Origin: a virus | Taxonomy: Duplodnaviria; Caudoviricetes | Virus record (IMG/VR): IMGVR_UViG_2974651877_000001 | Coordinates: 1 to 64,000 of that record | Direction: 5' to 3' (one strand) | DNA length: 64,000 nucleotides | Shown here: positions 39,438 to 52,464 of the stretch, in pieces | How positions within the stretch are numbered: the stretch's first letter is position 1 | Layout: each line of letters opens with the position of its first letter | Made by a program: the position numbers and the translations under genes | The notes under the pieces: model-generated | Databases searched by the model: none | Told to the model about the DNA's origin: nothing | What the model saw: only the letters and a program-made list of their open reading frames with translations

Positions 39438-39704
39438 ATGTCTAACACTAATAAAGTAGTAAAAGCACCTGTAGTTGGCGAAACTGTAAAGGTAAACCTA
39501 TACACCGCGCGAAATGCGAAAGCGCCAACTGATTACACGGGTCGCCTACAGCGAAGCCGCTCCTCTTCCATCGAGCGTATCTCAGCGATTTACTCTGATA
39601 CGGAGAAAGACAAGAAAGGCAACACACTCTACAGCGTTCTCCTAACTTCTGGAGACCAGGTGTTCATCGCTCGTGGCGATAAAGGCTGGTACGCTGTTCG
39701 TTAA
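39438..39704 (+). CDS. Hypothetical protein
   Basis: 88 aa with its own promoter (39373-39401) and GAGG RBS. Confidence 0.75.
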   Translation: MSNTNKVVKAPVVGETVKVNLYTARNAKAPTDYTGRLQRSRSSSIERISAIYSDTEKDKKGNTLYSVLLTSGDQVFIARGDKGWYAVR

Positions 39705-39796
39705 ACCCAGTTAAGGGCGAATAATTAAAAACTTTATTTGCCCAATCTCTTAATTTTTCGTATAATAATATCTCATTCAGAAAACAAGGAAACACC

Positions 39797-39973
39797 ATGC
39801 AAAAGATGTCGCGCCGAGGGAAGATGTTCTCTAACCATGACTACGCAGCGAAAGTAATGACTACTCGCTTTAAGGGTCTACAAAAAATCCTAACGTTGCT
39901 TTCACGAGGAACTTCGGTTTCTAAGTCAGAAGCAGCAATCTATCACGCAGCTAACCAAAAGGGGCTATTCTAA
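39797..39973 (+). CDS. Small basic hypothetical protein
   Basis: MQKMSRRGKMFSNHDY..., after a promoter at 39738-39766. Confidence 0.6.
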   Translation: MQKMSRRGKMFSNHDYAAKVMTTRFKGLQKILTLLSRGTSVSKSEAAIYHAANQKGLF

Positions 39974-39974
39974 T

Positions 39975-40268
39975 ATGGCATCAGGTCGTAATTCAAAACT
40001 TATTCGTACGCTAGCCTTACTAAACTCTAGCGAATCAGGTCGTATCCTAGAAACTAAAATGGTCTATGGTGGCCTACGCACTACTCAGCGTGACTACGTG
40101 CAAAACAAAGGCAAGGAAAACGAGTTCACTATCAGTACTCGCACCCTTCAACACGCCGAAGGCACGTATAAGAGCGAAGTTAAGCGTGCAAAAGCACTAT
40201 ACCGAGAAAAGGGTGTAGACGGTCTTATTGAAGCGATTGACGGGGCACTTTCCCGCCACGTTGAGTAA
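39975..40268 (+). CDS. Hypothetical protein
   Basis: 97-aa ORF with phage-like codon usage. Confidence 0.75.
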   Translation: MASGRNSKLIRTLALLNSSESGRILETKMVYGGLRTTQRDYVQNKGKENEFTISTRTLQHAEGTYKSEVKRAKALYREKGVDGLIEAIDGALSRHVE

Positions 40269-40345
40269 ATCTTCAATAGCTTTCAAGGCAAAATCTTGAT
40301 ATAATAATTACAGAAATTGAGGGAAACAACCTCTCAATTTCTAAT

Positions 40346-40422
40346 TGAGGTGTAGCTCAGTAGGTCAGAGCTGGGGAATCATAATCCCTGAGTCGGCGGT
40401 TCGAGTCCGCCCACCTCAACCA
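40346..40422 (+). tRNA. tRNA-Met (CAT)
   Basis: Cloverleaf with TTCGA T-loop and encoded CCA. Confidence 0.85.
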
Positions 40423-40480
40423 AATAATTTAAAATTACGTTTGCCCAATCTCTTTGAGTATTATATAATATTCAAACAAA

Positions 40481-40840
40481 TTGGAAAACAAAGCTAAGGA
40501 GCTTATTATGCCATGTAGAAGCTACGAACCAATCGACGTAGAACGAGCAGAGAAGCATTCTGCCCAACAAGAAGTACGTCAATTAAAGAATAGTCTAGGT
40601 AAAGCCCATACTCATATGGATAACCTAACACGTATGCTTTGCTATGTAGTTACCAAGGCTATAGAGGAAGATGTCGATACAGATATCCTAAATAACGAAG
40701 TGCGGGACTGGTATACAGCACATCGTCAAGCTGACCTGAACAACATGCGTGAGCTTATGGAGAATGTTGACCTAGACAGTCTTCCGAAAGAAGAATTTGA
40801 TACAGTTGACCGAATTTTGAGCAAATACCAAAAGAAATAA
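40481..40840 (+). CDS. Hypothetical protein
   Basis: Own promoter at 40441-40469; likely start MPCRSYE after AAGGAG. Confidence 0.7.
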   Translation: MENKAKELIMPCRSYEPIDVERAEKHSAQQEVRQLKNSLGKAHTHMDNLTRMLCYVVTKAIEEDVDTDILNNEVRDWYTAHRQADLNNMRELMENVDLDSLPKEEFDTVDRILSKYQKK

Positions 40841-40905
40841 AAAATCATTAGCTCAACAGTCGAAAAGTTTGATATAATAATCAAACAAATTGAGAAAAGA
40901 ATAGA

Positions 40906-40983
40906 AGCGGTTTTAGTCACGGCTGGTGCTGTTCCTGGGCTCATATCCCAGGCTGAGGGGTTCGATTCCTCACTCCGCAACCA
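40906..40983 (+). tRNA. Initiator tRNA-fMet (CAT)
   Basis: 1:72 mismatch, GGG/CCC anticodon stem and CCA. Confidence 0.85.
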
Positions 40984-41057
40984 ATTTGGTTCTGCATGAC
41001 CCCAAACTATATGCAGGTAAAACCTAGGATACGGTGCCTAGGAAACCAAAAACAAAT

Positions 41058-41237
41058 TGTTTATCAGGTTTTGGGTCTTTAGGCTAAAACCGACGTACAT
41101 CCTGACTTAGTACCTTGAGTGAGAACGACGTGAGAATGAAACCAACGAACGCTACGGCTCAGTAGTTGCGGATTCCAATACCTGACCAATACCGATAGGG
41201 AAAAGTAAAGCCACCGAGGTTTACTGGTAAGCAACCA
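41058..41237 (+). ncRNA. Putative CCA-terminated structured RNA (not a cloverleaf)
   Basis: tgtttatcag/ctggtaagca 10-bp closing stem followed by ACCA; internal hairpins. Confidence 0.5.
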
Positions 41238-41340
41238 AATTCAGGTGAACTGCGAAACTCTCGACTACCATCGTTCGCAAGTAGTTTACCGAATCCCGCT
41301 AGTGGACAGGGCGGTATATAAGTACTTCCACCCAGATAGT

Positions 41341-41418
41341 TGGGGCGAAGCTTAAGTGTGTATAAGCACCGGACTTTTAATCCGGCGATAGTGGGTTCGA
41401 ATCCCATCGCCCCTACCA
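41341..41418 (+). tRNA. tRNA-Lys (TTT)
   Basis: ccgga-cttttaa-tccgg anticodon arm; CCA. Confidence 0.9.
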
Positions 41419-41425
41419 AGTTAAT

Positions 41426-41500
41426 GCACTAGAAGGCGAAAGGCTAGCCGGCTCCCTTTCAAGGAGTTGTAAGCGGGTTCGATACCCGTCTAGTGTTCCA
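41426..41500 (+). tRNA. tRNA-Glu (TTC)
   Basis: gctcc-ctttcaa-ggagt anticodon arm; CCA. Confidence 0.88.
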
Positions 41501-41507
41501 AATCAAT

Positions 41508-41582
41508 TCACCGGAAGGCAAATGGCGAGCCATCTCCCTTTCAAGGAGACGTTAGCGAGTTCGATTCTCGTCCGGTGAACCA
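41508..41582 (+). tRNA. tRNA-Glu (TTC), second copy
   Basis: tctcc-ctttcaa-ggaga anticodon arm; CCA. Confidence 0.88.
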
Positions 41583-41583
41583 G

Positions 41584-41766
41584 ATTTCTTTAGTTAACAT
41601 TCTGAACTCGTGCCAGCGCAAGAAAACATGCCCAGTGAGGGAGATGACAAGGTGGCGGATGTCTTGGAGATTTGCAACTCCGATGGTGTAAAAGAGGGCT
41701 ATGGACGACCGCGAAAGAATGGGAGTAGCGAGTAACGTGTGGCTTAGGGTGTTAAGCTAAAGAAAT
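41584..41766 (+). ncRNA. Putative ~180-nt structured RNA with long terminal stem
   Basis: atttctttagttaacattct pairs with agggtgttaagctaaagaaat. Confidence 0.55.
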
Positions 41767-41823
41767 TTAAAAAATCAATTGCCTGAGACTCAGGCAATTG
41801 ATATAATAATCAAACAAATTGAG

Positions 41824-41980
41824 ATTTCTTTGAGAAAGCGAACAAAGACGATAGCAGCTAAATGTGGGTATAACACTGCTGAAATCCTCAGGGCACCCTC
41901 AACGCGCAAACCTGTATGCGAAAGAGTCGGAGTTCACGTTGTCTGTAACCGGTTTGGACGACAGCTTTCATCAAAGAGAT
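41824..41980 (+). ncRNA. Putative ~160-nt structured RNA
   Basis: Starts just after the promoter at 41779-41807; atttctttga-gaaagc pairs with gctttc-a-tcaaagagat. Confidence 0.55.
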
Positions 41981-41983
41981 TTC

Positions 41984-42059
41984 GGGGTCTTAGCTCAGTT
42001 GGGAGAGCAGGGTCTTTGCAAGGCTCAGGTCGAGGGTTCGAGTCCCTCAGATTCCACCA
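41984..42059 (+). tRNA. tRNA-Ala (TGC)
   Basis: G3:U70 pair, tttgcaa loop and CCA. Confidence 0.92.
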
Positions 42060-42064
42060 AATTT

Positions 42065-42155
42065 GTCGTATTAAACGTCTATGGAGGACGGCAGGATTGT
42101 AGTCCCTGTGTCTGCGAAAGCGGCTCCCTAGGTTCGATTCCTAGATGCGGCACCA
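42065..42155 (+). tRNA. tRNA-Tyr (GTA)
   Basis: ttgtagt loop, long variable arm and CCA. Confidence 0.85.
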
Positions 42156-42162
42156 TTACAAT

Positions 42163-42241
42163 GCGGTTGTTTGAGTCCACTATACTTGTGTGATATAAGA
42201 TTAATTCTAGGAGAAAACTGACTCAACCTAGAGCCGCACCA
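42163..42241 (+). ncRNA. CCA-terminated mini-RNA
   Basis: gcggtt/agccgc plus ACCA; inner ttgagtc/gactcaa stem; no T-loop or anticodon arm. Confidence 0.5.
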
Positions 42242-42247
42242 AACAAC

Positions 42248-42325
42248 GGGTGAGAAGCATAAGTGAGTATATGCGGTCGGCTGTTAACCGAAAGATAGAG
42301 GGTTCAAGTCCCTCCTTGCCCGCCA
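42248..42325 (+). tRNA. tRNA-Asn (GTT)
   Basis: ctgttaa loop and CCA. Confidence 0.9.
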
Positions 42326-42404
42326 AATTATGAAAACTTTCAATAGCCTAATGAGTTTATTATTGCTATAATAACTTTAGAAATTGAGAGAAAAGGAAAA
42401 ACGT

Positions 42405-42578
42405 ATGTTTAATCAGTTTATGGTAATTAGTTCTATGGGTTGGATTATCCCTAAAGGTGATAAAATGAAAGCAGCTTTGTATGCTTACGCTTATGGAGCC
42501 AGTCTAAAAACGGTTAGACAACAATTCGGTATCAGCAAACGTCGCTTGAAGAAAGCGATAAATGCTGGAAACTGGTAA
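42405..42578 (+). CDS. Small hypothetical protein
   Basis: Own promoter at 42344-42372; AAGGA RBS; MFNQFMVIS... Confidence 0.65.
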   Translation: MFNQFMVISSMGWIIPKGDKMKAALYAYAYGASLKTVRQQFGISKRRLKKAINAGNW

Positions 42579-42586
42579 AGAACAAT

Positions 42587-42665
42587 GCGGTGTTGGTCTA
42601 GTCAGGTCTAGGATGTCTCCCTGTCACGGAGAAGGTCACGGGTTCGAATCCCGTACATCGCGCCA
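42587..42665 (+). tRNA. tRNA-Asp (GTC)
   Basis: tctcc-ctgtcac-ggaga anticodon arm; CCA. Confidence 0.92.
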
Positions 42666-42670
42666 AACAA

Positions 42671-42749
42671 TGGGAGTTACCTCGAAGCTGGTTACCGTCA
42701 GAAGCGCAGGCTAAAGAAAAGCCTATAATACCTGCGCTGCTCCCACCCA
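42671..42749 (+). ncRNA. CCA-terminated mini-RNA
   Basis: tgggagt/gctccca plus CCCA; inner agcgcagg/cctgcgct stem. Confidence 0.5.
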
Positions 42750-42755
42750 AACAAT

Positions 42756-42831
42756 GCGTCTAAGTATACGGGTTATGCCGCGCGCCTTCCAAGCGTTGCA
42801 GAGTGGGGTTCGATTCCCCCTAGACGCTCCA
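42756..42831 (+). tRNA. tRNA-Gly (TCC)
   Basis: cttccaa loop, U73 and CCA. Confidence 0.88.
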
Positions 42832-42847
42832 AATTTTGGAGTCTATT

Positions 42848-43051
42848 ATGATTGTGTTTATTAATGAGAGCCAAGAAGTCTCACTATATTCTGACCTAGG
42901 TCAGTGTTTTGACAACGAGATTAACTTTCGTTTTAGTAAGATTCTTAACACAGAAACCGGAGAACTATACGTCTACGATGACGCCGGTGCTCTTGATTAC
43001 CAAACCGTAATAGAGGTCTTCGATGATGAGTACGAAGACGAAGACGAATAA
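42848..43051 (+). CDS. Small acidic hypothetical protein
   Basis: GGAG RBS; MIVFINES...DDEYEDEDE. Confidence 0.65.
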   Translation: MIVFINESQEVSLYSDLGQCFDNEINFRFSKILNTETGELYVYDDAGALDYQTVIEVFDDEYEDEDE

Positions 43052-43052
43052 A

Positions 43053-43127
43053 GCTGGTATACACAAGCAGGGCATGTGCGGGGCTGATAACCTCTGAAGA
43101 CTGGTTCGAGTCCAGTTACCAGTACCA
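43053..43127 (+). tRNA. tRNA-Ile (GAT)
   Basis: ctgataa loop, T-arm and CCA. Confidence 0.82.
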
Positions 43128-43134
43128 ATTTAAT

Positions 43135-43217
43135 GCACGCATAGCCGAGGGGTACTACGAATGCCCTATCCGTAAGAGGAGCTGAAAATGGTGGTTCGAG
43201 TCCATCTGCGTGTGCCA
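43135..43217 (+). tRNA. Non-canonical tRNA-Arg-like RNA (ACG) without a D-arm
   Basis: Acceptor gcacgca/tgcgtgt plus GCCA, canonical T-arm, and a gggta-ctacgaa-tgccc hairpin ~8 nt after the acceptor strand. Confidence 0.6.
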
Positions 43218-43223
43218 AACAAT

Positions 43224-43300
43224 CAGAGCGTAGGGCAGTCTGGTAGCCTACTCCACTTGGAATGGAGATGTCGCAGGTTCAAATCCTGCCGCTCTGACCA
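43224..43300 (+). tRNA. tRNA-Pro (TGG)
   Basis: ctcca-cttggaa-tggag anticodon arm; CCA. Confidence 0.92.
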
Positions 43301-43307
43301 GTTAACT

Positions 43308-43384
43308 CGGTGCTTAGCTCAGTAGTGTAGAGCGCTCCGTTTGGGACGGAGGGGTCGTGGGTTCGAGTCCTACAGTGCCGACCA
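43308..43384 (+). tRNA. tRNA-Pro (TGG), second copy
   Basis: ctccg-tttggga-cggag anticodon arm; CCA. Confidence 0.92.
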
Positions 43385-43387
43385 ATT

Positions 43388-43529
43388 TTGAGACGTTAGT
43401 TCAGCAACACCCAAGATAGCTGTTAACTCAAAGATGCGGGTCAACCGAGCTGTCGGTTGTAAAGTCAGAACAGTCGTTGAGCTTGCCGTAGGAGGGCAGC
43501 CTTAGCCGGGGTACGTAAAACCTCTCAAA
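43388..43529 (+). ncRNA. Putative ~140-nt structured RNA
   Basis: tttgaga/tctcaaa closing stem; internal caaccga/tcggttg hairpin. Confidence 0.4.
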
Positions 43530-43533
43530 TTAT

Positions 43534-43612
43534 GGGGTGTGATAGCTTTTGTGACTTAACCTTGAGAGACTAGGAGTAAGTGAGAGTTTATCGGGTTTAC
43601 CCAACCCCTCCA
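43534..43612 (+). ncRNA. CCA-terminated mini-RNA
   Basis: ggggt/acccc plus TCCA enclosing an imperfect long hairpin. Confidence 0.45.
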
Positions 43613-43618
43613 ATTTAT

Positions 43619-43690
43619 GGACAGATGGTGTAACGTAACACGCTAGCCAGCCAAAGGCTAGAGCGGGGTTATAATCCTCAATGTCCGCCA
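43619..43690 (+). tRNA. Degenerate tRNA-like gene (possible CCA/Trp anticodon, G33, atypical T-loop)
   Basis: ggaca/tgtcc plus GCCA, gtg/cac D-stem, ctagcc-agccaaa-ggctag, and a ttataat T-loop. Confidence 0.45.
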
Positions 43691-43696
43691 AACAAT

Positions 43697-43773
43697 AGCG
43701 GGTTAGTTTAATTGGTAAAACCTTGGATTTTGATTCCAAAGTCGCAGGGGTTCGAATCCCCCACCCGCCGCCA
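43697..43773 (+). tRNA. tRNA-Gln (TTG)
   Basis: ttgga-ttttgat-tccaa anticodon arm; CCA. Confidence 0.9.
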
Positions 43774-43774
43774 A

Positions 43775-44830
43775 AGAGGAGACACCAGAGCCTTGCAACA
43801 GTTCTGGTATGGGGTGGCTAGCAAGAGCCTGCCCACAGGGTGTCTAGTATATGCACTCACGGTCGATGCCCTTGGAAGATAGGGAATATATAAAGCCGCC
43901 GATACCTTCGGGTTAGGGGCTTCGGAAGTTCGCTTCTGGATTCTAGCAAGTCCGCTATAAACCGTGCCGAAAGGCAGCGCACGGGGAATCACAAAAGTGT
44001 ACTTGTACATTTTCGGCTGTATCTGGTCGTTAGAATAATCTATCGAAAGGTAGGAAGGGCATTACCCACCCAGGGTGTCGCCGGTCTTCGGACGGTTCGT
44101 GGATAAAAGTACGAGACTCCTAGATATAATTTACCTCTAGGGCTTCCTGAAAGAAAAGGGGAGAAAAGTCAAGAAAACTAGAGCGAGGTTCGTAGGTAGG
44201 GTATGCCTATGGATACTGGGAAGATAACCAAGAGCCCTAAAGAAGACCGCAATCTTCTGCCTCGATGCAACTCTGGAAGACCGACGAAAGTCTAACGTAT
44301 AACACATTAGTGCGAGCAGTCATGTAAGTGCGGTGTGTACCAAAACAAGGTTGGGTTGAAGAATCTAAATCTTGCAAGGAGTTTAGTAGCGGGAACGTGA
44401 ACGACATGACTGAGTGGAATATCCGGTTATCCAAAAGGTAACGGGCTCCTGTGGGGACACTCAGTTGGGATGCTTAACATACAATGAACTAGACAGTTAA
44501 TCTAATCTTCATAGGATTTATATAAAAGCAAAAGAGCCCCACGGTACATGTTGAAAGGCGGTTAATTCCTAGCCCCCTCAAGGAACTAGGAGCATAGAAG
44601 GTCGCAAGCCTGATATGTTTTATCGGAAAAAGAATTTAGCGTCTTAGCGGATGCGAACGGGTCGCAAGCTCGGAAGGAATGGAACGATAGAGTAGACATG
44701 TATGACACTCCCACAGCATGGAGTCTAAATATTGCACCGCTGTTCGGATACCAGTGAGAACTGGTGGATAAGCCCTAAGACATACGGGTAGTGAAAGACC
44801 GGACAATGTAAGCCGTAATCTCAGGCTGAA
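43775..44830 (+). ncRNA. Giant structured non-coding RNA, GOLLD-like
   Basis: ~1.05 kb with no + strand ORF in the track, many GNRA/UUCG hairpins, long-range pairings, a 3' agccgtaatctcaggct end and a tRNA-cluster context. Confidence 0.7.
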
Positions 44831-44840
44831 TATTTTGAGG

Positions 44841-44920
44841 ATTCTTTGAGTTGTGTTCGGTGAAGTGGGTTGCCCTCCCAAAGGGTCGTCAGAACTTCCG
44901 AATATAACTCATCAAAGAAT
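44841..44920 (+). ncRNA. Long hairpin RNA (~80 nt)
   Basis: attctttga-gttgtgttcgg pairs with ccgaatataactc-a-tcaaagaat. Confidence 0.5.
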
Positions 44921-44929
44921 AGATTTAAT

Positions 44930-45006
44930 GCAGGAATGGCGGAATTGGCATACGCGCTGGACTTAGAATCCAGATTTTGAGAGTTCGAGTCTCTCTTCCT
45001 GTACCA
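44930..45006 (+). tRNA. tRNA-Leu (TAG) with short variable loop
   Basis: ctgga-cttagaa-tccag anticodon arm; CCA. Confidence 0.9.
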
Positions 45007-45011
45007 AATTA

Positions 45012-45035
45012 AGGGCGAGAAATCGCCCTATTTTT
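45012..45035 (+). terminator. Intrinsic terminator
   Basis: agggcga-gaaa-tcgccct followed by attttt. Confidence 0.7.
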
Positions 45036-45041
45036 ATCCCT

Positions 45042-45118
45042 GCTCGCATGGTCAAATTGGCATAGGCAATAGACTTAAAATCTATGGTATGTGGGTTCGA
45101 CTCCCACTGCGAGTACCA
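45042..45118 (+). tRNA. tRNA-Leu (TAA) with short variable loop
   Basis: ataga-cttaaaa-tctat anticodon arm; CCA. Confidence 0.9.
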
Positions 45119-45250
45119 AACTCTAGGAGACCTGTTAAGAGCCTCACTGGTCTTTAAAGTATCGAAAGAGGTCTGCGCTACACGTGGCATACGTTAGACC
45201 GTAAGGGTTAGAAATATGTCGGAGCATGGGAGCAGCATGCCACTAACAAA

Positions 45251-45347
45251 GGAAGAGTAAGCCGAAAGATTCTGGGTAACGGCAACGGTCTTGAAAACCG
45301 TCAGTCACTTAACGGGCGTGTGGGTTCGAATCCCACTTCTTCCGCCA
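45251..45347 (+). tRNA. tRNA-Ser (TGA)
   Basis: acggt-cttgaaa-accgt, long variable arm, G73 and CCA. Confidence 0.88.
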
Positions 45348-45437
45348 AATTAGAGCGTTCAGGCACCATGCCCTGAGGACGCGTATTCGACCTGATGCCG
45401 GTCAGCTGCGGTGAGACTCCGAAGTGTGGAACAATTT

Positions 45438-45500
45438 ATTAAAATCTTCAATAGCTAAATAACCTAAATTTCTATATAATATATTTATAGAATTAAGAAA
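45438..45500 (+). promoter_or_regulatory. Repeated promoter module, copy 1
   Basis: TAGCTA-17-TATAAT; 57/63 identical to 45920-45982. Confidence 0.8.
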
Positions 45501-45509
45501 GGTATTCGC

Positions 45510-45920
45510 ATGAAGATAAAAACCATGAGTAGAGGCTACAATCCTAGCATAAAGATTTCAAATATGTCAGTATCTTTGTTTATTAGGATGCAAGATGGAG
45601 AAACTTATCAGGTAGGTGTTATTAGACGACCTCTATCTAACCTAGGCTACGGACACGCTTTAATCACTAACGGAGATTACAATAGCAAAAACGTTACCCT
45701 AGAGCAGATAACTAAGCACTTAAAGGATGCGTATGAGCACATCTTAGGCCTAGACCCCAAGTCTGTTTCTTATTTTGACTTCTCGGTAGGTATACTGGAC
45801 TACCACCACGGTAGACTACTATGGTCAGCCAAGAGTACTGATAATGAGGATATTCACGCCACATTACGGAGCTTTAAGACTTTAGTTAAAAATTCCTTTG
45901 CGGTTTCTAAACTACAATAA
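45510..45920 (+). CDS. Hypothetical protein
   Basis: 136-aa ORF between the two promoter repeats. Confidence 0.7.
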   Translation: MKIKTMSRGYNPSIKISNMSVSLFIRMQDGETYQVGVIRRPLSNLGYGHALITNGDYNSKNVTLEQITKHLKDAYEHILGLDPKSVSYFDFSVGILDYHHGRLLWSAKSTDNEDIHATLRSFKTLVKNSFAVSKLQ

Positions 45921-45982
45921 TTAAAATCTTCGTTAGCTAAATAGCCTATATTTCTGTATAATATATTTATAGAATGAAGAAA
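45920..45982 (+). promoter_or_regulatory. Repeated promoter module, copy 2
   Basis: TAGCTA-17-TATAAT. Confidence 0.8.
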
Positions 45983-45992
45983 GGGCAAGAGC

Positions 45993-46250
45993 ATGAAGAA
46001 ACACATGGATTACTACGGTGTAGAGGCACTAATTAGACTAGTTAGTGCAGAAATAAATGTACCCATGCTACAGCCGCGCCCCCACTTTCGAGTTAAGAAA
46101 GATAAAATATCTTGGAAAGTGTACGGAAGGCTAAACGAAGAAAAAGTTTTGTTTACAGGCATCCTAGACAGAAAGTCTTGGTTAGATAAGCGTAAGTCTC
46201 TGATTATGTACCACGAAGACAGTCATCCAACTGGATTCTACGATTTTTAA
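45993..46250 (+). CDS. Hypothetical protein
   Basis: 85-aa ORF after a promoter. Confidence 0.7.
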   Translation: MKKHMDYYGVEALIRLVSAEINVPMLQPRPHFRVKKDKISWKVYGRLNEEKVLFTGILDRKSWLDKRKSLIMYHEDSHPTGFYDF

Positions 46251-46325
46251 GCCTTCAAAGCATTGCTGGCGATGCACTGGATTTGTAACCCAGTGAATTC
46301 GGTTCGATTCCGGATGAAGGCACCA
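46251..46325 (+). tRNA. tRNA-Thr (TGT)
   Basis: tttgtaa loop and CCA. Confidence 0.9.
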
Positions 46326-46331
46326 AACAAT

Positions 46332-46404
46332 GTGGGAGGGACGCTGGGCGTCGGTCGGATTCCAAACCCGTATCTGCTAGGTTCGATTCCTAGCTCCTAT
46401 GCCA
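46332..46404 (+). tRNA. tRNA-Trp (CCA)
   Basis: ttccaaa loop, G73 and CCA. Confidence 0.8.
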
Positions 46405-46406
46405 AA

Positions 46407-46644
46407 TTGTACAATAGCGACGATAACGCTTGGTAAGGCACTGATAAATTATCGGCATAGCGCAACCTTACCACTAATACTATGGTTGTAATCACAACCC
46501 AGTCCACCGATACTGATTAGGAAGGCGGTAGGGTAATCCCCGAATACAGATGTATTCGTTAGTATCTAAAAACAAGCGCAGTGAGGGGTGACAGCCTATA
46601 AGTCGTGTGGAGCAACTGCCTCCCATAGGTACTAACTAATACAA
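46407..46644 (+). ncRNA. Putative ~240-nt structured RNA between tRNAs
   Basis: tggtaagg/ccttacca, gatactga/ttagtatc and cgaatac/gtattcg stems; no ORF. Confidence 0.45.
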
Positions 46645-46645
46645 T

Positions 46646-46721
46646 GCACGGTTGGCAGAGCGGCAGATGCGGCAGATTTACATTCTGTTTGAGGTGGGTT
46701 CGATTCCTACACCGTGTACCA
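46646..46721 (+). tRNA. tRNA-Val (TAC)
   Basis: gcaga-tttacat-tctgt anticodon arm; CCA. Confidence 0.9.
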
Positions 46722-46727
46722 AATTAA

Positions 46728-46803
46728 GCCCCTGTAACTCACCAGGTGAGAGTAGCAAGCTCATAACTTGTTAGGCAGGGTTCGAGTCCCTGAAGGGGTA
46801 CCA
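46728..46803 (+). tRNA. tRNA with CAT anticodon (Ile2-lysidine or elongator Met)
   Basis: gcaag-ctcataa-cttgt anticodon arm; CCA. Confidence 0.82.
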
Positions 46804-46817
46804 GTTAAGGAGCGATT

Positions 46818-46994
46818 ATGGAACATCCATTTATTGTTTATATAAAAGAAGAAGTTAACAAGCTTGATGCGCAAGTTAGGGCAGCTAGAGCCGAAGACTA
46901 CCGAAACTCTAATCCGGTGGCTAGAGCCAAAATAAAGCGACTACTAACTGCTAAGCGAGAATTTGAAACGTTCCTAGCCCAAGAAAACAACTAA
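46818..46994 (+). CDS. Small hypothetical protein
   Basis: AAGGAG RBS; 58 aa MEHPFIVY... Confidence 0.65.
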   Translation: MEHPFIVYIKEEVNKLDAQVRAARAEDYRNSNPVARAKIKRLLTAKREFETFLAQENN

Positions 46995-46998
46995 TTAC

Positions 46999-47075
46999 GC
47001 AGCGGTAGCTCAGTTGGTTAGAGCGGTGGATTGAAGTCCCACAGGTCGAGGTCTCGATACCCTCTCGCTGCACCA
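46999..47075 (+). tRNA. tRNA-Phe (GAA)
   Basis: ttgaagt loop, slightly atypical T-loop and CCA. Confidence 0.85.
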
Positions 47076-47081
47076 TATTAT

Positions 47082-47143
47082 GCCCCACTAGTTAGTGGTC
47101 TATACTCCGGAGATGGCGGTTCGATTCCGTACGTGGGGCTGCA
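47082..47143 (+). pseudogene. tRNA remnant lacking an anticodon arm
   Basis: gccccac/gtggggc acceptor and gcgg-ttcgatt-ccgt T-arm; ends in TGCA. Confidence 0.55.
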
Positions 47144-47158
47144 ATTTAGGAGAACGTA

Positions 47159-47476
47159 ATGGACAGAGACCCAGCATTTCAAGAGTGGCTTGACCGTCAG
47201 CCTAAGTGTGACGAGTGCGGTAAACCACAGACCACACTACATAAGCATTATGAGCATTGTTCTAAGTACGAGCACATAGTTGACGACCATTACGATTCTG
47301 CGTGTATGCGTGGTACGTGTAAGCACTGCTTCCCTAACTACGTTGCTAAGGTTACTATGGAAGTTACCGAACAAGAAAAGTCGCTAATAAAAGCACTTAG
47401 AGACCCAGGTAGTTCAATGGCTGCTATTTACCACCACATAAAGAAAGTAGCAGCTTTCTTTAAGAAAGTACATTAG
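47159..47476 (+). CDS. Cys/His-rich hypothetical protein
   Basis: CDEC and CKHC motifs; AGGAG RBS. Confidence 0.7.
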   Translation: MDRDPAFQEWLDRQPKCDECGKPQTTLHKHYEHCSKYEHIVDDHYDSACMRGTCKHCFPNYVAKVTMEVTEQEKSLIKALRDPGSSMAAIYHHIKKVAAFFKKVH

Positions 47477-47587
47477 TTTCAGAACAACAGGAGCACCGCC
47501 TAACCGTAGGGCTTCTGCTGAAAGACCGTTTAACTGAGAGCGCTTGCACGGTCGGAGGGGTTAAAGTCCTCAGCAAGCCAACAAATT

Positions 47588-47720
47588 ATTTTTTGAGCAC
47601 TCTGTACAGCTAGTCCCTCTCTTGGTTGAGATACTAGCTCTGTTGGAGTAGTGACCTGAGGAAACCAAAGGCTAGGTTTACACTGAACCCAAGTCTGCGA
47701 GGATAGAGTGCTCAAAAAAT
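47588..47720 (+). ncRNA. Putative ~130-nt structured RNA
   Basis: ttttttgagcactct...agagtgctcaaaaaat closing stem; internal agctagt/actagct. Confidence 0.55.
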
Positions 47721-47727
47721 AAAAAAC

Positions 47728-47815
47728 GGAAGATAATCCACAACTGGTGTGTGGGACTCCCTGCTAAGGAGATTGCTTGGAAACGGGTGCAGTTCGATTC
47801 TGCTGTCTTCCTCCA
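47728..47815 (+). tRNA. tRNA-Ser (GCT)
   Basis: ctgctaa loop, variable arm and CCA. Confidence 0.85.
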
Positions 47816-47822
47816 CTCTACT

Positions 47823-47913
47823 AGAAGATGAGCCCTGATGGTGAAGGGGTACGCCTGGAAAGCGTTACGATTGTGGTGACATGGTTTCGGTTCGATTCCG
47901 ACTTCTTCTGCCA
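47823..47913 (+). tRNA. tRNA-Ser (GGA)
   Basis: ctggaaa loop, variable arm and CCA. Confidence 0.85.
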
Positions 47914-47936
47914 ATTTGATTTACAAGAGGTGAAAT

Positions 47937-48245
47937 ATGTTTAAAGGAATTCGTAGATGGTTCCATAAAACTTTCGGTACATGCACTTGGGGAACCCCAA
48001 TTAAGACCTTTGACTTTGTGCCTGTGGAACACGCTAATATTCGATATTGCACCCATGAACTGTGTAACAAAACTTGCACTAAAACAGCAGACCTAGATAC
48101 TATAGCTAAATACAAAGAAGCCCAAAGAATAGAGCTTGAAAAGTCTAGGGTAAGTAAGGCAGCGTCGGCAAAGCAGCCAGAGACGGTTGCAGTAGATAAA
48201 GCGGCACGTAGAGCAAAGCGGGCACTAAAACGAAATAAGCCCTAG
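47937..48245 (+). CDS. Hypothetical protein
   Basis: GAGGTG RBS; 102 aa. Confidence 0.7.
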   Translation: MFKGIRRWFHKTFGTCTWGTPIKTFDFVPVEHANIRYCTHELCNKTCTKTADLDTIAKYKEAQRIELEKSRVSKAASAKQPETVAVDKAARRAKRALKRNKP

Positions 48246-48462
48246 GAGGGATTATGATTTACTGCAAAGACACTCAAGGCTACCTACGCAGAGTAGCATA
48301 CGGAACCTTCAACCAAAACTGGAGTCTTATACAGAACCCTGCTAGAGTTAAAGAAATGCTGAGACAGACTCTAAACATCCACACGAACGGAGCAGTCTTG
48401 GTACTTGTCAAATAACCCCCAAGGGCGCGAACGAAAGTTGTCGCCCTATTTTTGTATCCGAG

Positions 48463-48756
48463 GTGTTTATGCCACGATTTAAGAAACGTAATAAAACCTT
48501 CCTATCAGAGTCACACGAGGAATTTGGCAGTGTATCCTGGTATGTTAAGGAAAGAGGTGATTGGGGCTCTGACGTTCAAAGTGAGATTCGCATCACAGAC
48601 TGTTACAAGGTAGTAACTCTAGACTTTTGTGCAGAAAGCCCTTCAGACGCTAAAAAGCGCCTAGAAAAGCTAGATACTTTGATTACCGAACTACAAGAAG
48701 CTCGAAAAGCCCTACAAGAGTGCGTTGATTTACGCTGGAACCGTAAATACATTTAA
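48463..48756 (+). CDS. Hypothetical protein
   Basis: GAGGTG RBS; IRITDCYKVVTLDF motif. Confidence 0.7.
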   Translation: MFMPRFKKRNKTFLSESHEEFGSVSWYVKERGDWGSDVQSEIRITDCYKVVTLDFCAESPSDAKKRLEKLDTLITELQEARKALQECVDLRWNRKYI

Positions 48757-48823
48757 TCTTTACTAGCCTTTTGTCCGATTTTTCCGTATAATACTTGTAT
48801 AAACTGAAAAGAAGGGATAAAAG

Positions 48824-49096
48824 ATGAGTAACCACGTAATCCTAAGCAAAGAACTGTACACTAAGGTAATGGAGCAGCTAAATCAGTTCGCTAACTACCG
48901 TGACGATTCTGAAGGAGTATTGCAAGGTATTCTGACAGAAGCAGAAGCGGCAAAGCAAGCCAGCGAAGGCGTAGTCCCTGTACATAGAGAAGACTTATCT
49001 ACTGTAATTTCCCTAGCAGGTTACGAAGTAGAGTATGCCGACGAAGAAGACCAGAAAACATACGCTAAGTTAGTAGATTTGACTATAGGAGAGTAG
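48824..49096 (+). CDS. Hypothetical protein
   Basis: Own promoter at 48764-48792. Confidence 0.7.
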   Translation: MSNHVILSKELYTKVMEQLNQFANYRDDSEGVLQGILTEAEAAKQASEGVVPVHREDLSTVISLAGYEVEYADEEDQKTYAKLVDLTIGE

Positions 49097-49099
49097 GCT

Positions 49100-49354
49100 A
49101 TGCAAGGGTGTAAAAATTGTCACGAACTTTTAGATGTACTATTAGACGAGTGTGACCAATGTGGCAGTACAGACCTGGAACCTGTAGTTGAGTGTGTTCA
49201 CTGTGGCTGCTGGGTTTCCGAAGACCACGTAGACAGGGCGGGACTATGCGACTCTCAGGGCAATGACTGTGCCTCTGACCCAGACTTAGTAGATGAGTAC
49301 GACGGTGAAGCCGTCGATACTATCTTAGCTTTATCTAAACAACTATTGCGATAG
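49100..49354 (+). CDS. Zinc-finger-like hypothetical protein
   Basis: CKNC, CDQC and CVHC motifs. Confidence 0.7.
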   Translation: MQGCKNCHELLDVLLDECDQCGSTDLEPVVECVHCGCWVSEDHVDRAGLCDSQGNDCASDPDLVDEYDGEAVDTILALSKQLLR

Positions 49355-49356
49355 GA

Positions 49357-49545
49357 GTGTGTATGTCTCTAACAGAAGGAAAAATGCGTCAAGTACCTAG
49401 GCCACCTAGGCCACCAGGCTTACGGAGTAGAGGGCCAACTAGGGAGCAAGCAGTATCTATGGCCTTTACTGTAGGTACAGTAGTAGGTGTAATCCTGGGC
49501 ATAGTATTTATGTTCGTTGTAACTAGTATAGCAGCTATGCAGTAA
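49357..49545 (+). CDS. Small membrane protein
   Basis: Pro/Arg-rich N-terminus and C-terminal hydrophobic helix. Confidence 0.55.
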   Translation: MCMSLTEGKMRQVPRPPRPPGLRSRGPTREQAVSMAFTVGTVVGVILGIVFMFVVTSIAAMQ

Positions 49546-49621
49546 ATTATTAAAATCTTTAATAGCTTAGCAGCCCAAATTTCCGTATAATATCTGTATA
49601 AATTGAGAAAAGGAAACAGAC

Positions 49622-50110
49622 ATGAGCAAGGCACTTTACGATTTAGTTGACCAAATCTCTGACATGGATGACGAAGTCCATGAAATGCTACCAGGCTATA
49701 TTAAAGATTTTAATACTATGCTGCTAGTAGAGCCTATTATGGCTCTGGCAGATACCAAGGCACTAGAGCTTAAGTATCGTAAACAGCTAGTTTATCTCTT
49801 TAGAGAAGAGCTAGACTCTTGGAACTGCATTCCAGAGTACACGGGAGAGTATCTACTATCTTTCAGTAGAGACCGAGTTTGCTATGCCGAAAAGCAGGTT
49901 AAGCTGACTAAGTACGTAGGGGACTGTAAGGAAACCCTGTCAATACCAATCTTTTCGTTCGAGAAGCTGCGTAAGGTACAGGATGAAGCTTATCGCATTG
50001 TGAACTCGTTAAATGCGGAATATGCTACTGAACAGTCTAGTAAGGCCGCTTTGGAGAAAGAAAAACGTCGCCAACAGTTCGAAAAGCTAAAACGAGAATT
50101 CGGAGAGTAA
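49622..50110 (+). CDS. Hypothetical protein
   Basis: Own promoter at 49563-49591; ends with FEKLKREFGE. Confidence 0.75.
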   Translation: MSKALYDLVDQISDMDDEVHEMLPGYIKDFNTMLLVEPIMALADTKALELKYRKQLVYLFREELDSWNCIPEYTGEYLLSFSRDRVCYAEKQVKLTKYVGDCKETLSIPIFSFEKLRKVQDEAYRIVNSLNAEYATEQSSKAALEKEKRRQQFEKLKREFGE

Positions 50111-50112
50111 TC

Positions 50113-50346
50113 ATGTCAAAAACAGTAATTGATACTGAAACCTTAGAGAAGATTCTGACCCTTGGTAAAGTAGCCTCTCTAGTTATGTTGGCTTCCAAAG
50201 ATATGGTAGCACATCATGGAGCAGAGTCCTTGCTCTCACAGGGAGAGCAGGCTATTAAGGACAGCATGGGTCTTCGTATCTTCACTAAAGAAGAAGTAGC
50301 CGCATTAGAAAAGCATTTCGACCTCGGAGCATTCTTCGAGGAATAG
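50113..50346 (+). CDS. Hypothetical protein
   Basis: GGAG RBS; 77 aa. Confidence 0.7.
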   Translation: MSKTVIDTETLEKILTLGKVASLVMLASKDMVAHHGAESLLSQGEQAIKDSMGLRIFTKEEVAALEKHFDLGAFFEE

Positions 50347-50354
50347 CAGACAAA

Positions 50355-50430
50355 GGGCGATACGCTGAAGACTCGAAGCGCGGGATTGCAAACTCCGTCT
50401 TAGTGGGTGGGAGTCCCACATTGCCCTCCA
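50355..50430 (+). tRNA. tRNA-Cys (GCA) with atypical T-loop
   Basis: ttgcaaa loop, U73 and CCA; T-loop tgggagt. Confidence 0.75.
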
Positions 50431-50610
50431 GATAAGGTAAGAAAATGCCAAAAAATAGAGCAGAAAAGAACGGTCTAGGAGTATGGGTATGTAAGCCCGT
50501 AAAAGAGGAAGAAGACTGGTTCTCCAAGCACGATAGCTTTATAAAGGGTGCTATCTTAGGTGCCTCAGCAATGTATATACTAGCCCTATTCCTATTTTAG
50601 AAACTACTCT

Positions 50611-51024
50611 TTGGAGAGCACAATGAAAGAAGTTATTTTAAAAGCCGGCTATACCCTTAAAATAGTATCTTGGGAAAACGACGCTGACTTCTACAATACC
50701 AAAACCTATCACGTAGAGGACGAGAATTGGGCTATTATTTTAAAGCATATCTGTGAGAACTTACTATGCTCTCGATACTCTAGCTCTAGTGACTACGGAG
50801 TAGGTAATACTAACCTATCTAGTAGCGACAGTGCTAATAGAGTAGCAGAGTATTTTAAAACCTATGGTATTCCAGAACACGTTCCAGAAGACGAACTTCT
50901 TGAATGGCTACACGACCTATCCTACGATTTAGTAGGTAGCTCCTACGAAAGTGATTGTATACGAGTATGTGAGTCGTGTAAAGTCTTGTACACTCCAGTT
51001 GATATTGAGGTAGAAACTCTATAA
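50611..51024 (+). CDS. Hypothetical protein
   Basis: GYTLKIVSWENDADFYNT motif. Confidence 0.7.
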   Translation: MESTMKEVILKAGYTLKIVSWENDADFYNTKTYHVEDENWAIILKHICENLLCSRYSSSSDYGVGNTNLSSSDSANRVAEYFKTYGIPEHVPEDELLEWLHDLSYDLVGSSYESDCIRVCESCKVLYTPVDIEVETL

Positions 51025-51053
51025 CAATCTGCCGAAGCCTTTACTAGGCTTCA

Positions 51054-51761: not shown

Positions 51762-51840
51762 GGTACATATTAAAACCCTCCGAAGTACTAGAGGGTTTTC
51801 ACATGTAACCGACTAACTATATTACTTTATAAGGATTGAT

Positions 51841-52457: not shown

Positions 52458-52464
52458 TACCTAC

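What the first reader, a model, noticed from the sequence alone, without database searches (positions are those of the whole stretch)
43775..44830. Giant (~1.05 kb) GOLLD-like ornate RNA inside the tRNA cluster
Seen: no + strand ORF, many GNRA/UUCG hairpins, and long-range complementarities: cagtcatgt 44317-25 / acatgactg 44404-12; gcggtg 44330-35 / caccgc 44735-40; actgagtg 44409-16 / cactcagt 44458-65; gtgggg 44451-56 / ccccac 44537-42; tacatgt 44545-51 / acatgta 44696-702; gtcttag 44641-47 / ctaagac 44775-81. The terminal hairpin is agcc-gtaatctca-ggct (44811-27). Established: GOLLD and ROOL are giant phage RNAs found next to tRNAs, with unknown function, and form multimeric cages. Inference: the 3' end resembles the GOLLD 3' domain as I recall it. 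The element is longer than the typical ~800 nt, so it may have an extra 5' domain or be a new family.
Basis: partly seen in the sequence, partly recalled or inferred. Interest (0 to 1): 0.8.

Follow-up and report, generated by a model that had tools for sequence, protein, structure and literature searches.

The report
Known GOLLD RNA plus separate upstream RNA
The flagged stretch of this Vibrio phage holds an ordinary-sized member of the known cage-forming GOLLD RNA family, and the apparent extra 5' length is a separate small folded RNA that related phages carry without GOLLD.

Summary
Window 44407-44827 (+) matches Rfam GOLLD (RF02032) over the whole model at 185 bits (cut-off 150). The Rfam model covers only the 3' domain.

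The 5' domain is 43992-44406. It has covarying structure (39 of 102 pairs with double changes, 0/500 shuffles). It is collinear with the 5' domains of other viral GOLLDs. GOLLD proper is therefore about 836 nt, close to the 833-nt env-38 GOLLD (PMC12286853).

"Longer than typical / extra domain / new family" is not supported. The first ~220 nt (43774-43997, "module A") is a separate folded unit. Four GOLLD-less Vibrio Demerecviridae lineages carry it directly before tRNA-Leu(UAG). GOLLD occurs without it in phage D148 and contig L196.

All six proposed pairings sit at the stated coordinates. Three are supported by covariation, one of them a family-wide pseudoknot. Three are not.

GenBank already annotates "GOLLD" at this locus in related phages (MW824424.1, MW824415.1). 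The scan also met GOLLD earlier in another marine T5-like phage (e1-6036260). Verdict: new member of a known family, low-to-moderate interest. Whether module A stays attached in the mature RNA is untested.

The parts
43697..43773 (+). tRNA-Gln(UUG), the upstream neighbour. Its 3' end abuts module A.
   Evidence: ARAGORN; Rfam tRNA 54.6 bits.
43774..43997 (+). Module A: a folded RNA unit of about 220 nt, not part of the GOLLD family. It ends in CAAAAG, which is invariant in all 11 sequences aligned.
   Evidence: 43883-43997 is 81% identical to the tRNA-Pro/tRNA-Leu(tag) spacer of phage Ceto and 76% to Thalassa-like phages. None of those four records has a GOLLD at E <= 1. Fold of the 3' part: 22 pairs, 7 compensatory. 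Whole unit: 38 pairs, 14 compensatory. No Rfam match at E <= 1. Single-sequence folding energy is not unusual (z -0.53).
43992..44406 (+). GOLLD 5' domain (about 409-415 nt), starting with a hairpin that includes AAAAG of the CAAAAG.
   Evidence: Inter-lineage homology starts at 43990/43991 in the three comparisons against the window and at the equivalent point in two between relatives. RNAalifold structure: 102 pairs in 19 helices, 92.4% paired, 39 pairs with double changes against 18.5 in shuffles, 0/500, slid 3-11. Models R2 and R3 built from it hit other viral GOLLD loci at the collinear distance from the 3' domain.
44407..44827 (+). GOLLD 3' domain, the part covered by the Rfam model.
   Evidence: RF02032, 185 bits, gathering 150, E 1.8e-50, model 1-416/416. 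It is the only copy in the 113,760-bp genome.
44451..44456 (+). 5' arm (GUGGGG) of a pseudoknot. It lies in the internal loop of the first 3'-domain helix and pairs with 44537-44542.
   Evidence: 6 of 6 pairs kept in 7 of 7 sequences, 3 with double changes. On 56 distinct independent viral GOLLDs: 8 pairs, 84.6% paired against 66.2% shuffled, 83 double-change cells against 22.3, 0/500.
44467..44536 (+). Variable A/U-rich linker. By position it is the published J13/15, which is disordered and faces the cage interior in env-38.
   Evidence: Poorly aligned and variable in length (48-59 nt within the alignment columns measured) between lineages. Low posterior probabilities in the Rfam alignment. 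The equivalence with J13/15 is by position only (PMC12286853 and PMC12990946 passages).
44537..44542 (+). 3' arm (CCCCAC) of the pseudoknot.
44545..44702 (+). Long-range helix 44545-44551 / 44696-44702, which encloses the central hairpins of the 3' domain.
   Evidence: It is the [[[ ]]] helix of the Rfam structure line. 7 pairs, 2 with double changes, 100% paired.
44811..44827 (+). Terminal hairpin with the conserved loop GUAAUCUCA.
   Evidence: Sequence. It aligns to the last hairpin of the Rfam model with posterior probability '*' throughout.
44828..44856 (+). Short conserved trailer. Inter-lineage homology ends at 44855/44856.
   Evidence: Beyond it the four sequences compared do not align.
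44841..44920 (+). Separate long closed hairpin between GOLLD and tRNA-Leu. Not part of GOLLD.
   Evidence: MFE -31 kcal/mol, z -3.16, 1 of 200 shuffles folds as well. Its interior differs completely between the window and phage X1, although their GOLLDs are 98% identical.
44930..45006 (+). tRNA-Leu(UAG). In GOLLD-less relatives it directly follows module A.
45012..45029 (+). Terminator-like hairpin followed by a T run; possible end of the transcription unit.
   Evidence: Consensus scan only. The number of such sites in the region is not above shuffled expectation.

Best explanation
The interval holds two RNA elements in a row, inside the tRNA cluster of a complete 113.8-kb T5-like Vibrio phage (Demerecviridae, Pogseptimavirus-like).

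(1) 43992-44827 is a canonical two-domain GOLLD RNA of about 836 nt: a 5' domain of about 410 nt and a 3' domain of 421 nt.

(2) 43774-43997 is an independent folded RNA of about 220 nt (module A). In GOLLD-less relatives it sits directly in front of tRNA-Leu(UAG).

Shown: family membership, the domain structure, the module boundaries, and the independence of the two units across genomes.

Inferred, transcription and processing: no consensus promoter lies directly upstream, and a terminator-like hairpin follows tRNA-Leu. Both units are therefore probably transcribed with the neighbouring tRNAs and released when RNase P and the tRNA 3'-end enzymes cut out the tRNAs, with one further cut near the CAAAAG separating module A from GOLLD.

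Inferred, mode of action: by membership, the GOLLD RNA folds into separate 5' and 3' domains and self-assembles without protein into a closed homo-oligomeric cage of 12-14 copies. The 5' domains form the caps, the 3' domains form the ring, and the variable linker (44467-44536) points inwards. My odds that it forms such a cage are about 0.7. My odds that its role is tied to the phage's tRNA and translation supply during lytic growth are about 0.35. The cargo and the benefit to the phage are unknown.

Relative to Ceto-type phages, GOLLD plus the trailing hairpin (about 43998-44917) looks like a 0.9-kb cassette lying between module A and tRNA-Leu, flanked by CAAAAG and CAAAG.
For: Identity:
- RF02032 at 185 bits against a cut-off of 150, full model; single copy in the genome.
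- The same locus scores 176-186 bits in phages X1, 70E35.6, D260 and D148.
- It is annotated ncRNA 'GOLLD' in MW824424.1 and MW824415.1.

5' domain:
- 102 pairs, 39 with double changes, 0/500 shuffles.
- Model R2 (last 108 positions of the 5' domain) hit 8 other viral GOLLD loci, all 8 abutting the 3'-domain hit (start-to-start 114-115 nt; window 105).
- Model R3 (first part) hit 22 loci. 19 of these also have a 3'-domain hit, all on the same strand and 384-423 nt upstream (window 392).

Size: 5' domain 409-457 nt and 3' domain 411-421 nt in 7 sequences. env-38 has 420 + 413 nt (PMC12286853).

Boundaries:
- Inter-lineage homology starts at window 43990/43991 and ends at 44855/44856 in the three comparisons against the window (the D-series records, 70E35.6 and L196).
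- It starts at the equivalent point, L002 2501, in the two comparisons between relatives (D260 and L196 against 70E35.6).

Independence:
- Module A without GOLLD in Ceto, Thalassa, PVo5 and VPG01: 0 of 4 records have a GOLLD hit at E <= 1. pVp-1, of the same genus as VPG01, also carries module A but was not searched for GOLLD.
- In the four records with tRNA annotation (Ceto, Thalassa, PVo5, VPG01), the blast match to module A ends 10-12 nt before tRNA-Leu.
- GOLLD without module A in D148, where it follows a tRNA directly, and in L196, where it follows a 175-aa ORF plus about 280 nt of unrelated spacer.
- D148's polymerase is only 31% identical over 177 aa, against 61-63% over the full length for the Demerecviridae. 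Yet its GOLLD aligns in both domains (55-57% and 62-66% identity).

Module A has its own closed fold with compensatory changes.
Against: - No transcript ends are known. tRNA processing alone would release one 1,156-nt piece (43774-44929) holding module A, GOLLD and the trailing hairpin. A single longer RNA, at least as an intermediate, is therefore not excluded.
- Divergent module-A-like sequence also precedes GOLLD in 70E35.6 and D260, so the two units are often neighbours.
- The predicted closing helix of module A runs 2 nt into GOLLD and overlaps GOLLD's first hairpin, so the two folds compete at the junction.
- The covariation alignments have only 7 sequences from about 4 lineages, and the 5' domain structure was predicted from the same alignment on which it was counted.
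- E-values of my models are rough. Many R3 hits are individually weak (E 0.01-0.9); only their collinearity carries weight.
- Cage formation, stoichiometry and function are inferred from two published family members, not tested on this sequence.
- Module A's folding energy is no better than shuffled sequence (z -0.53).
Confidence: 0.8

Rival explanations
1. One reading: one giant RNA of 1.05-1.16 kb, in which module A is a lineage-specific extra 5' domain that stays covalently attached to GOLLD and is displayed 12-14 times on or in the cage.
For: No tRNA or recognisable processing signal separates module A from GOLLD. tRNA excision alone would leave them joined. Module-A-like sequence also lies upstream of GOLLD in 70E35.6 and D260. 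The closing helix of module A co-varies with the two nucleotides after CAAAAG, i.e. with whatever follows it.
Against: Module A is conserved at 76-81% identity in phage lineages with no GOLLD. GOLLD of the same subtype exists without it in D148 and L196. Inter-lineage homology breaks exactly at the junction in all five comparisons made. The GOLLD part alone already has the full published size.
Confidence: 0.2
2. Module A is not a functional RNA of its own. It is only a conserved leader that guides processing of whatever follows it: tRNA-Leu in some phages, GOLLD here.
For: It always lies directly upstream of an RNA gene and directly downstream of a tRNA. Its folding energy is unremarkable. IMG/VR holds it only in known Vibrio Demerecviridae isolates.
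Against: 14 of 38 predicted pairs keep pairing through double changes across genera, which is more constraint than a mere spacer needs. A structured processing guide would, however, show the same pattern, so this rival is not clearly separable from the main reading.
Confidence: 0.25
3. The stretch is protein-coding. About 290 GenBank records of related phages (the D series) annotate it as five or six small hypothetical proteins.
For: CDS features lie over the homologous region in the OZ19xxxx records. Antisense ORFs of 100, 81 and 65 aa exist in the window.
Against: The Rfam hit is full-length. Substitutions follow base pairing, not codons. No + strand ORF of 40 aa or more lies in 43883-45509. 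The three antisense ORFs match no Pfam family.
Confidence: 0.01

Closest known systems
GOLLD RNA env-38 (833 nt, marine metagenome; cryo-EM 14-mer cage, PDB 9MEE; Kretsch et al. 2025, PMC12286853)
   Same: Same Rfam family and same two-domain layout. Sizes are nearly the same (about 410 + 421 nt here, 420 + 413 there). The variable linker sits early in the 3' domain. Both come from marine sources and lie next to a tRNA.
   Different: Helix-by-helix correspondence and stoichiometry are untested. Here a separate ~220-nt module lies between the upstream tRNA and GOLLD.
GOLLD annotated in Vibrio crassostreae phages 70E35.6 and 234P1 (GenBank MW824424.1, MW824415.1)
   Same: Homologous over the whole 866 nt (window 43991-44856) at 70.9% identity. 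Same phage family and same place in the tRNA cluster. Rfam score 176 bits.
   Different: Those records annotate only the 421-nt 3' domain and place a small CDS over the 5' domain. The upstream and downstream neighbours differ.
Streptococcus agalactiae GOLLD (700 nt full length, 12-mer; 3' domain alone mainly a 10-mer; reviewed in PMC12990946)
   Same: Same family. It shows that the 3' domain is the conserved assembly core and that the 5' domain caps the cage and fixes the stoichiometry.
   Different: The Sag RNA lacks several 5'-domain helices and is about 135 nt shorter. By size, the window's RNA is of the long, env-38-like form.
ROOL RNA (Rfam; the other cage-forming phage RNA found near tRNAs)
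   Same: Large, ornate, phage-borne, in tRNA islands, and cage-forming.
   Different: No ROOL match at E <= 1 anywhere in 39500-52500. The fold is unrelated.

Membership tests
GOLLD RNA (Rfam RF02032) | Covariance-model score at or above the curated gathering score, over the whole model | tested here: met
   185 bits against 150, E 1.8e-50, model 1-416/416, window 44407-44827 +.
GOLLD RNA (Rfam RF02032) | Conserved terminal hairpin with the loop GUAAUCUCA | tested here: met
   AGCC-GUAAUCUCA-GGCU at 44811-44827, aligned to the model's last hairpin.
GOLLD RNA (Rfam RF02032) | A structured but less conserved 5' domain of about 400 nt directly upstream of the 3' domain | tested here: met
   43992-44406: 102 pairs, 39 with double changes, 0/500 shuffles. 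Collinear R2 and R3 hits in 8 and 19 other viral GOLLD loci. A sequence-only profile found none of 119 loci, as expected for a variable domain.
GOLLD RNA (Rfam RF02032) | Variable single-stranded linker early in the 3' domain (published J13/15), closed by a pseudoknot | tested here: met
   The linker 44467-44536 varies between lineages. The pseudoknot 44451-56/44537-42 covaries here and in 56 independent viral GOLLDs. Its equivalence to a published helix (probably P15) is my inference; figures are not held.
GOLLD RNA (Rfam RF02032) | Encoded by a phage or prophage, next to or within tRNA genes | tested here: met
   Complete phage genome with direct terminal repeats. 17 tRNAs by ARAGORN and 19 by Rfam, with tRNA-Gln upstream and tRNA-Leu downstream.
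GOLLD RNA (Rfam RF02032) | Self-assembly into a closed homo-oligomeric cage (12-14 copies) | not testable with these tools
   Known for env-38 and S. agalactiae GOLLD only. Needs mass photometry or cryo-EM of this transcript.
GOLLD RNA (Rfam RF02032) | Expressed as a stable RNA of about 0.8 kb during phage lytic growth | tested here: inconclusive
   Contigs of a ~92% relative in one mangrove metatranscriptome sample cover 44010-44455 and 44539-44837. Contigs show neither ends nor that the source was RNA.
ROOL RNA | Match to the Rfam ROOL covariance model | tested here: not met
   No ROOL row among the 32 matches with E <= 1 in 39500-52500.

The most novel reading that the evidence does not exclude
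In Pogseptimavirus-type phages module A is not cut off. The mature RNA would then be a module A-GOLLD fusion of about 1.05 kb, so each cage would carry 12-14 copies of an appended folded module that other phages use on its own next to tRNA-Leu. That would make it a natural example of an RNA cage decorated with a functional add-on, and a clue to what GOLLD cages handle.
Probability: 0.17. Interest if true: 0.6.

Novelty: new member of a known kind. Interest (0 to 1): 0.3.

Why it matters
As a GOLLD it is ordinary. The family has been known since 2009, its cage structure was solved in 2025, and the same locus is already labelled GOLLD in GenBank records of related Vibrio phages.

Three things are still useful:
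- **A workable experimental system.** Near-identical copies sit in cultured, strictly lytic phages with easy hosts: vB_ValS_X1 on V. alginolyticus (98% identical) and PG07 on V. parahaemolyticus. GOLLD-less sister genera (Ceto, Thalassa) differ at exactly this site. That natural with/without comparison could help find the still unknown function of GOLLD.
- **Sharp unit boundaries.** The boundaries (43992 and about 44856), together with the same GOLLD subtype in an unrelated 187-kb Vibrio phage, suggest GOLLD moves between phages as a discrete 0.9-kb RNA cassette.
- **Annotation gaps.** About 290 public records annotate this RNA as five or six small proteins, and the X1 and PG07 records do not annotate it at all.

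Module A is a small conserved folded RNA with no Rfam family. It is a modest new item.

Tried and rejected
Searches for closer or wider relatives:
- BLAST of the window's four sub-regions against 119 GOLLD-bearing IMG/VR loci fetched by a 3'-motif pattern gave no hit at E 1e-3 and only short matches at E 10. The family is too divergent for BLAST.
- Two 16-mers from the 5' domain, scanned in IMG/VR, gave 10 and 47 loci. Only PG07 itself was real, and 9 of 9 others tested have no Rfam match at gathering score.
- An nhmmer profile of the 5' domain found 0 of 119 loci, while the 3' profile found 30 of 119. Covariance models later found the weak collinear 5' hits.
- The single metagenome scan returned one contig, L196.

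Expression data:
- The look-up of sequencing runs gave only Logan contigs with small shares of the sequence.
- When laid, whole contigs from one mangrove metatranscriptome sample (X2 = X4) cover 44010-44455 and 44539-44837.
- Nothing covers module A, the linker 44456-44538 or the trailer. Lack of cover in contigs is not evidence, and the library is not shown to be free of DNA.
- I draw no habitat or transcript-end conclusion from it.

Other negatives:
- RNAalifold also proposed a helix between about 44014-44021 and 44732-44738. It is almost invariant, so it is neither supported nor used.
- The tail 44828-44932 aligned with three relatives gave no consensus structure, 0 pairs.
- CTAGCAAG occurs twice in module A but is not enriched in the window: 3 matches against 3.5 expected.
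- The promoter scan found no + strand site between 42849 and 44490. The one at 44490-44517 lies in the variable linker and scores 9 of 12. Site counts are not above shuffles.
- The ORF inserted after GOLLD in PG07 has no Pfam family.
- Module A's single-sequence fold has z -0.53.

Literature:
- No paper in the library holds 'GOLLD' together with 'Vibrio phage'.
- None of the 15 best-ranked papers for GOLLD/Demerecviridae/T5-like/Vibrio contains the word GOLLD.
- A plain 'GOLLD' search is swamped by a surname that begins the same way.
- Supplementary files, including the GOLLD alignments of PMC12286853, are closed. They may already list Vibrio phage members.
- I read passages, not whole texts, of PMC12286853 and PMC12990946. 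Weinberg et al. 2009 is recalled only through their citations.
Full report
**What the genome is.** The window is the first 64 kb of a complete 113,760-bp virus record with direct terminal repeats. Its closest named relatives are Vibrio phages vB_ValS_X1, VB_Vhy_SJ1 and vB_VpS_PG07 (Demerecviridae, genus Pogseptimavirus), at 88-98% identity over the region studied. The finding lies in a + strand tRNA cluster. ARAGORN finds 17 tRNAs and Rfam finds 19. The interval is bounded by tRNA-Gln (43697-43773) and tRNA-Leu(UAG) (44930-45006).

**The observation.**
- No + strand ORF of 40 aa or more lies between 43883 and 45509. One 56-aa TTG ORF (43712-43882) overlaps tRNA-Gln and the first 108 nt.
- Three antisense ORFs have no Pfam family.
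- GNRA/UUCG hairpins are strongly enriched: 11 against 2.46 +/- 1.52 in shuffles, with 0 of 500 reaching 11.

**Is it GOLLD?** Yes. Rfam RF02032 matches 44407-44827 at 185 bits (gathering score 150, E 1.8e-50) over model positions 1-416 of 416. It is the only copy in the genome, and no ROOL or other large-RNA family matches at E <= 1.

The Rfam model covers only the conserved 3' domain. Kretsch et al. 2025 (PMC12286853, passages read) describe GOLLD env-38 as 833 nt, with a 5' region at 1-420, a 3' region at 421-833 and a disordered linker at 497-538. [quoted passage not shown]

**Where the RNA begins and ends.** Inter-lineage homology starts at window 43990/43991 and ends at 44855/44856 in the three comparisons against the window: the D-series records, 70E35.6 (70.9% identity) and the metagenome contig L196. 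It starts at the equivalent point, L002 2501, in the two comparisons between relatives: D260 against 70E35.6 and L196 against 70E35.6.

A 5' domain running from there to 44406 is 409-415 nt. In seven sequences the 5' domain is 409-457 nt and the 3' domain 411-421 nt. GOLLD proper is therefore 43992-44827, about 836 nt, which is an ordinary size for the family.

**Structure of the GOLLD part.** A 7-sequence alignment was folded: window, X1, SJ1, PG07, 70E35.6, D260 and D148, about four independent lineages. It gave 204 predicted pairs, 81 of them with compensatory double changes.
- For the 5' domain alone: 102 pairs in 19 helices, 92.4% of cells paired, 39 pairs with double changes against 18.5 in shuffles (0/500), and 3-11 when partners are slid.
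- The caveat is that this structure was predicted from the same alignment.

- **Supported (pairings 3, 4, 5):** 44409-16/44458-65, 44451-56/44537-42 and 44545-51/44696-702 are 100% paired, with 10 of 21 pairs showing double changes (0/500).
- **Not supported (pairings 1, 2, 6):** 44317-25/44404-12, 44330-35/44735-40 and 44641-47/44775-81 are no better than shuffled (383/500).
- Pairings 3 and 5 are helices of the Rfam structure line. Pairing 4 is a pseudoknot that is not in that line.

I tested pairing 4 independently.
- I built a covariance model of the sub-region without the pseudoknot (R1).
- It matched 62 of 100 IMG/VR GOLLD loci, none of which was used to build it.
- On the 56 distinct sequences, the eight pseudoknot pairs are 84.6% paired against 66.2% in shuffles, with 83 double-change cells against 22.3 (0/500; slid 4-26).
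- The pseudoknot is therefore a family-wide feature. Published texts call the linker it closes J13/15, so it is probably the published P15. I could not check this, because figures are not held.

**Is the 5' domain the usual one?** A sequence profile of it finds none of 119 viral GOLLD loci, in keeping with a variable domain. Covariance models do find it.
- R2 (last 108 positions) hit 8 loci besides L196. All 8 abut the R1 hit of the same locus (start-to-start 114-115 nt; window 105).
- R3 (first part) hit 22 loci besides L196. 19 of these also have an R1 hit, all on the same strand and 384-423 nt upstream (window 392). The other 3 have no R1 hit.
- Many of these hits are individually weak (E up to 0.9, and E-values from these models are rough). 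Their collinearity is what cannot be chance.
- The 5' domain is thus the common GOLLD 5' domain, not a new one.

**The extra 5' part is a different thing.** Window 43883-43997 is 81% identical to a spacer in phage Ceto and 76% to Thalassa-like phages. Shorter matches occur in PVo5, pVp-1 and VPG01.
- The Ceto, Thalassa, PVo5 and VPG01 records have no GOLLD at E <= 1 (0 of 4). pVp-1 was not searched.
- In those four records the blast match to module A ends 10-12 nt before tRNA-Leu(UAG).
- All 11 aligned sequences end the module with an invariant CAAAAG.
- The module folds on its own. The 3' part has 22 pairs, 7 compensatory. The whole has 38 pairs, 14 compensatory.
- It has no Rfam match. Its single-sequence folding energy is unremarkable (z -0.53).

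Conversely, GOLLD of the same subtype occurs without module A.
- In D148 it follows a tRNA directly.
- In L196 it follows a 175-aa ORF and about 280 nt of unrelated spacer, yet it still begins ...ACAAAAG|TGTA.
- D148 is an unrelated phage. Its family-A polymerase is 31% identical over 177 aa, whereas D260, 70E35.6 and Ceto are 61-63% identical over the full length. Even so, its GOLLD aligns in both domains.

Compared with Ceto, the window has about 920 nt (43998-44917: GOLLD plus a trailing hairpin) between module A and the tRNA-Leu leader, flanked by CAAAAG and CAAAG. I read this as a cassette gained or lost at that site. The direction cannot be told.

**What remains open.** No transcript ends are known.
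- Divergent module-A-like sequence precedes GOLLD in 70E35.6 and D260 too.
- The predicted closing helix of module A overlaps GOLLD's first hairpin.
- The only expression data are contigs from one mangrove metatranscriptome sample that lie within the GOLLD bounds, which proves little.
- I give about 0.7 to separate mature RNAs and about 0.2 to a fused one.

**How it works.**
- **By membership:** the RNA should fold into separate 5' and 3' domains and assemble, without protein, into a closed cage of 12-14 copies, with the variable linker inside. This is shown for env-38 (a 14-mer) and S. agalactiae GOLLD (a 12-mer). It is inferred here.
- **From the literature:** the passages read say that function is unknown, that expression rises during phage-induced lysis, that tRNAs are sometimes embedded in the linker, and that ribosomes bind GOLLD in pull-downs.
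- **From position:** the gene lies inside the tRNA operon. No promoter-like site lies directly upstream, and a terminator-like hairpin sits at 45012-45029 (consensus scan only).
- **My best guess:** a role tied to tRNA or translation supply during lytic growth, at about 0.35.

**Novelty.** The family is known, and GenBank already labels the homologous 3' domain 'GOLLD' in MW824424.1 and MW824415.1.

I found no paper linking GOLLD with Vibrio or T5-like phages. Supplements, which may list such members, were closed. About 290 D-series records annotate the region as five or six small proteins, and the X1 and PG07 records leave it unannotated.

**Verdict.** This is a new member of a known kind. 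The element is real, the family call is correct, and the claims of extra length and of a new family are wrong. The by-products are modest: module A, the sharp cassette boundaries, and the family-wide pseudoknot.

Noticed in passing
window 44841-44920: A long closed hairpin lies between GOLLD and tRNA-Leu (MFE -31 kcal/mol, z -3.16). Its closing stem is shared with phage X1, but the interior (about 44860-44900) is completely different, although the two GOLLDs are 98% identical. This is the 'same handle, different cargo' pattern also noted by e1-6217542.
   Followed up: partly
L005 2130-2660 (PG07, MH645904.1): PG07 carries a 176-aa ORF inserted between the GOLLD trailer and tRNA-Leu, at the point where window homology breaks (44850 to 44912). 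It has no Pfam family.
   Followed up: partly
window 45251-45343: A tRNA-like match (Rfam tRNA-Sec model, 35.8 bits, below its cut-off) that ARAGORN missed. The X1 record annotates a tRNA-Ser at what appears to be the equivalent place (L004 2997-3093); I did not map the coordinates. Similar sub-threshold tRNA-like matches lie at 47728-47811 and 40907-40978.
   Followed up: no
window 43385-43696: A 312-nt ORF-free spacer between tRNA-Pro and tRNA-Gln. It is conserved at about 88-94% in X1, SJ1 and PG07 and shows no similarity to the Ceto spacer. It may hold further small RNAs (earlier notes e1-6217540 and e1-6217542 point there).
   Followed up: no
L185 (Vibrio phage D148, OZ196545.1) about 1416-2289: An unrelated 187-kb Vibrio phage carries the same GOLLD subtype (186 bits) in the middle of an array of more than 20 tRNAs, with about 59 extra nt in the first hairpin loop. 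This suggests GOLLD is exchanged between unrelated phages of one host genus.
   Followed up: partly
GenBank OZ195xxx-OZ196xxx records (D-series Vibrio phages), e.g. L184 1496-2495: The GOLLD region is annotated as five or six hypothetical proteins of about 30-60 aa on both strands in about 290 records. These are almost certainly spurious gene calls over an RNA gene.
   Followed up: partly
window 44637-44652: The loop of this hairpin keeps a self-complementary GC in all lineages (CGCG in D260). It lies about 235 nt into the 3' domain, about where env-38 has the symmetric GC/CG kissing loop at nt 656-657. The match is by offset only.
   Followed up: no
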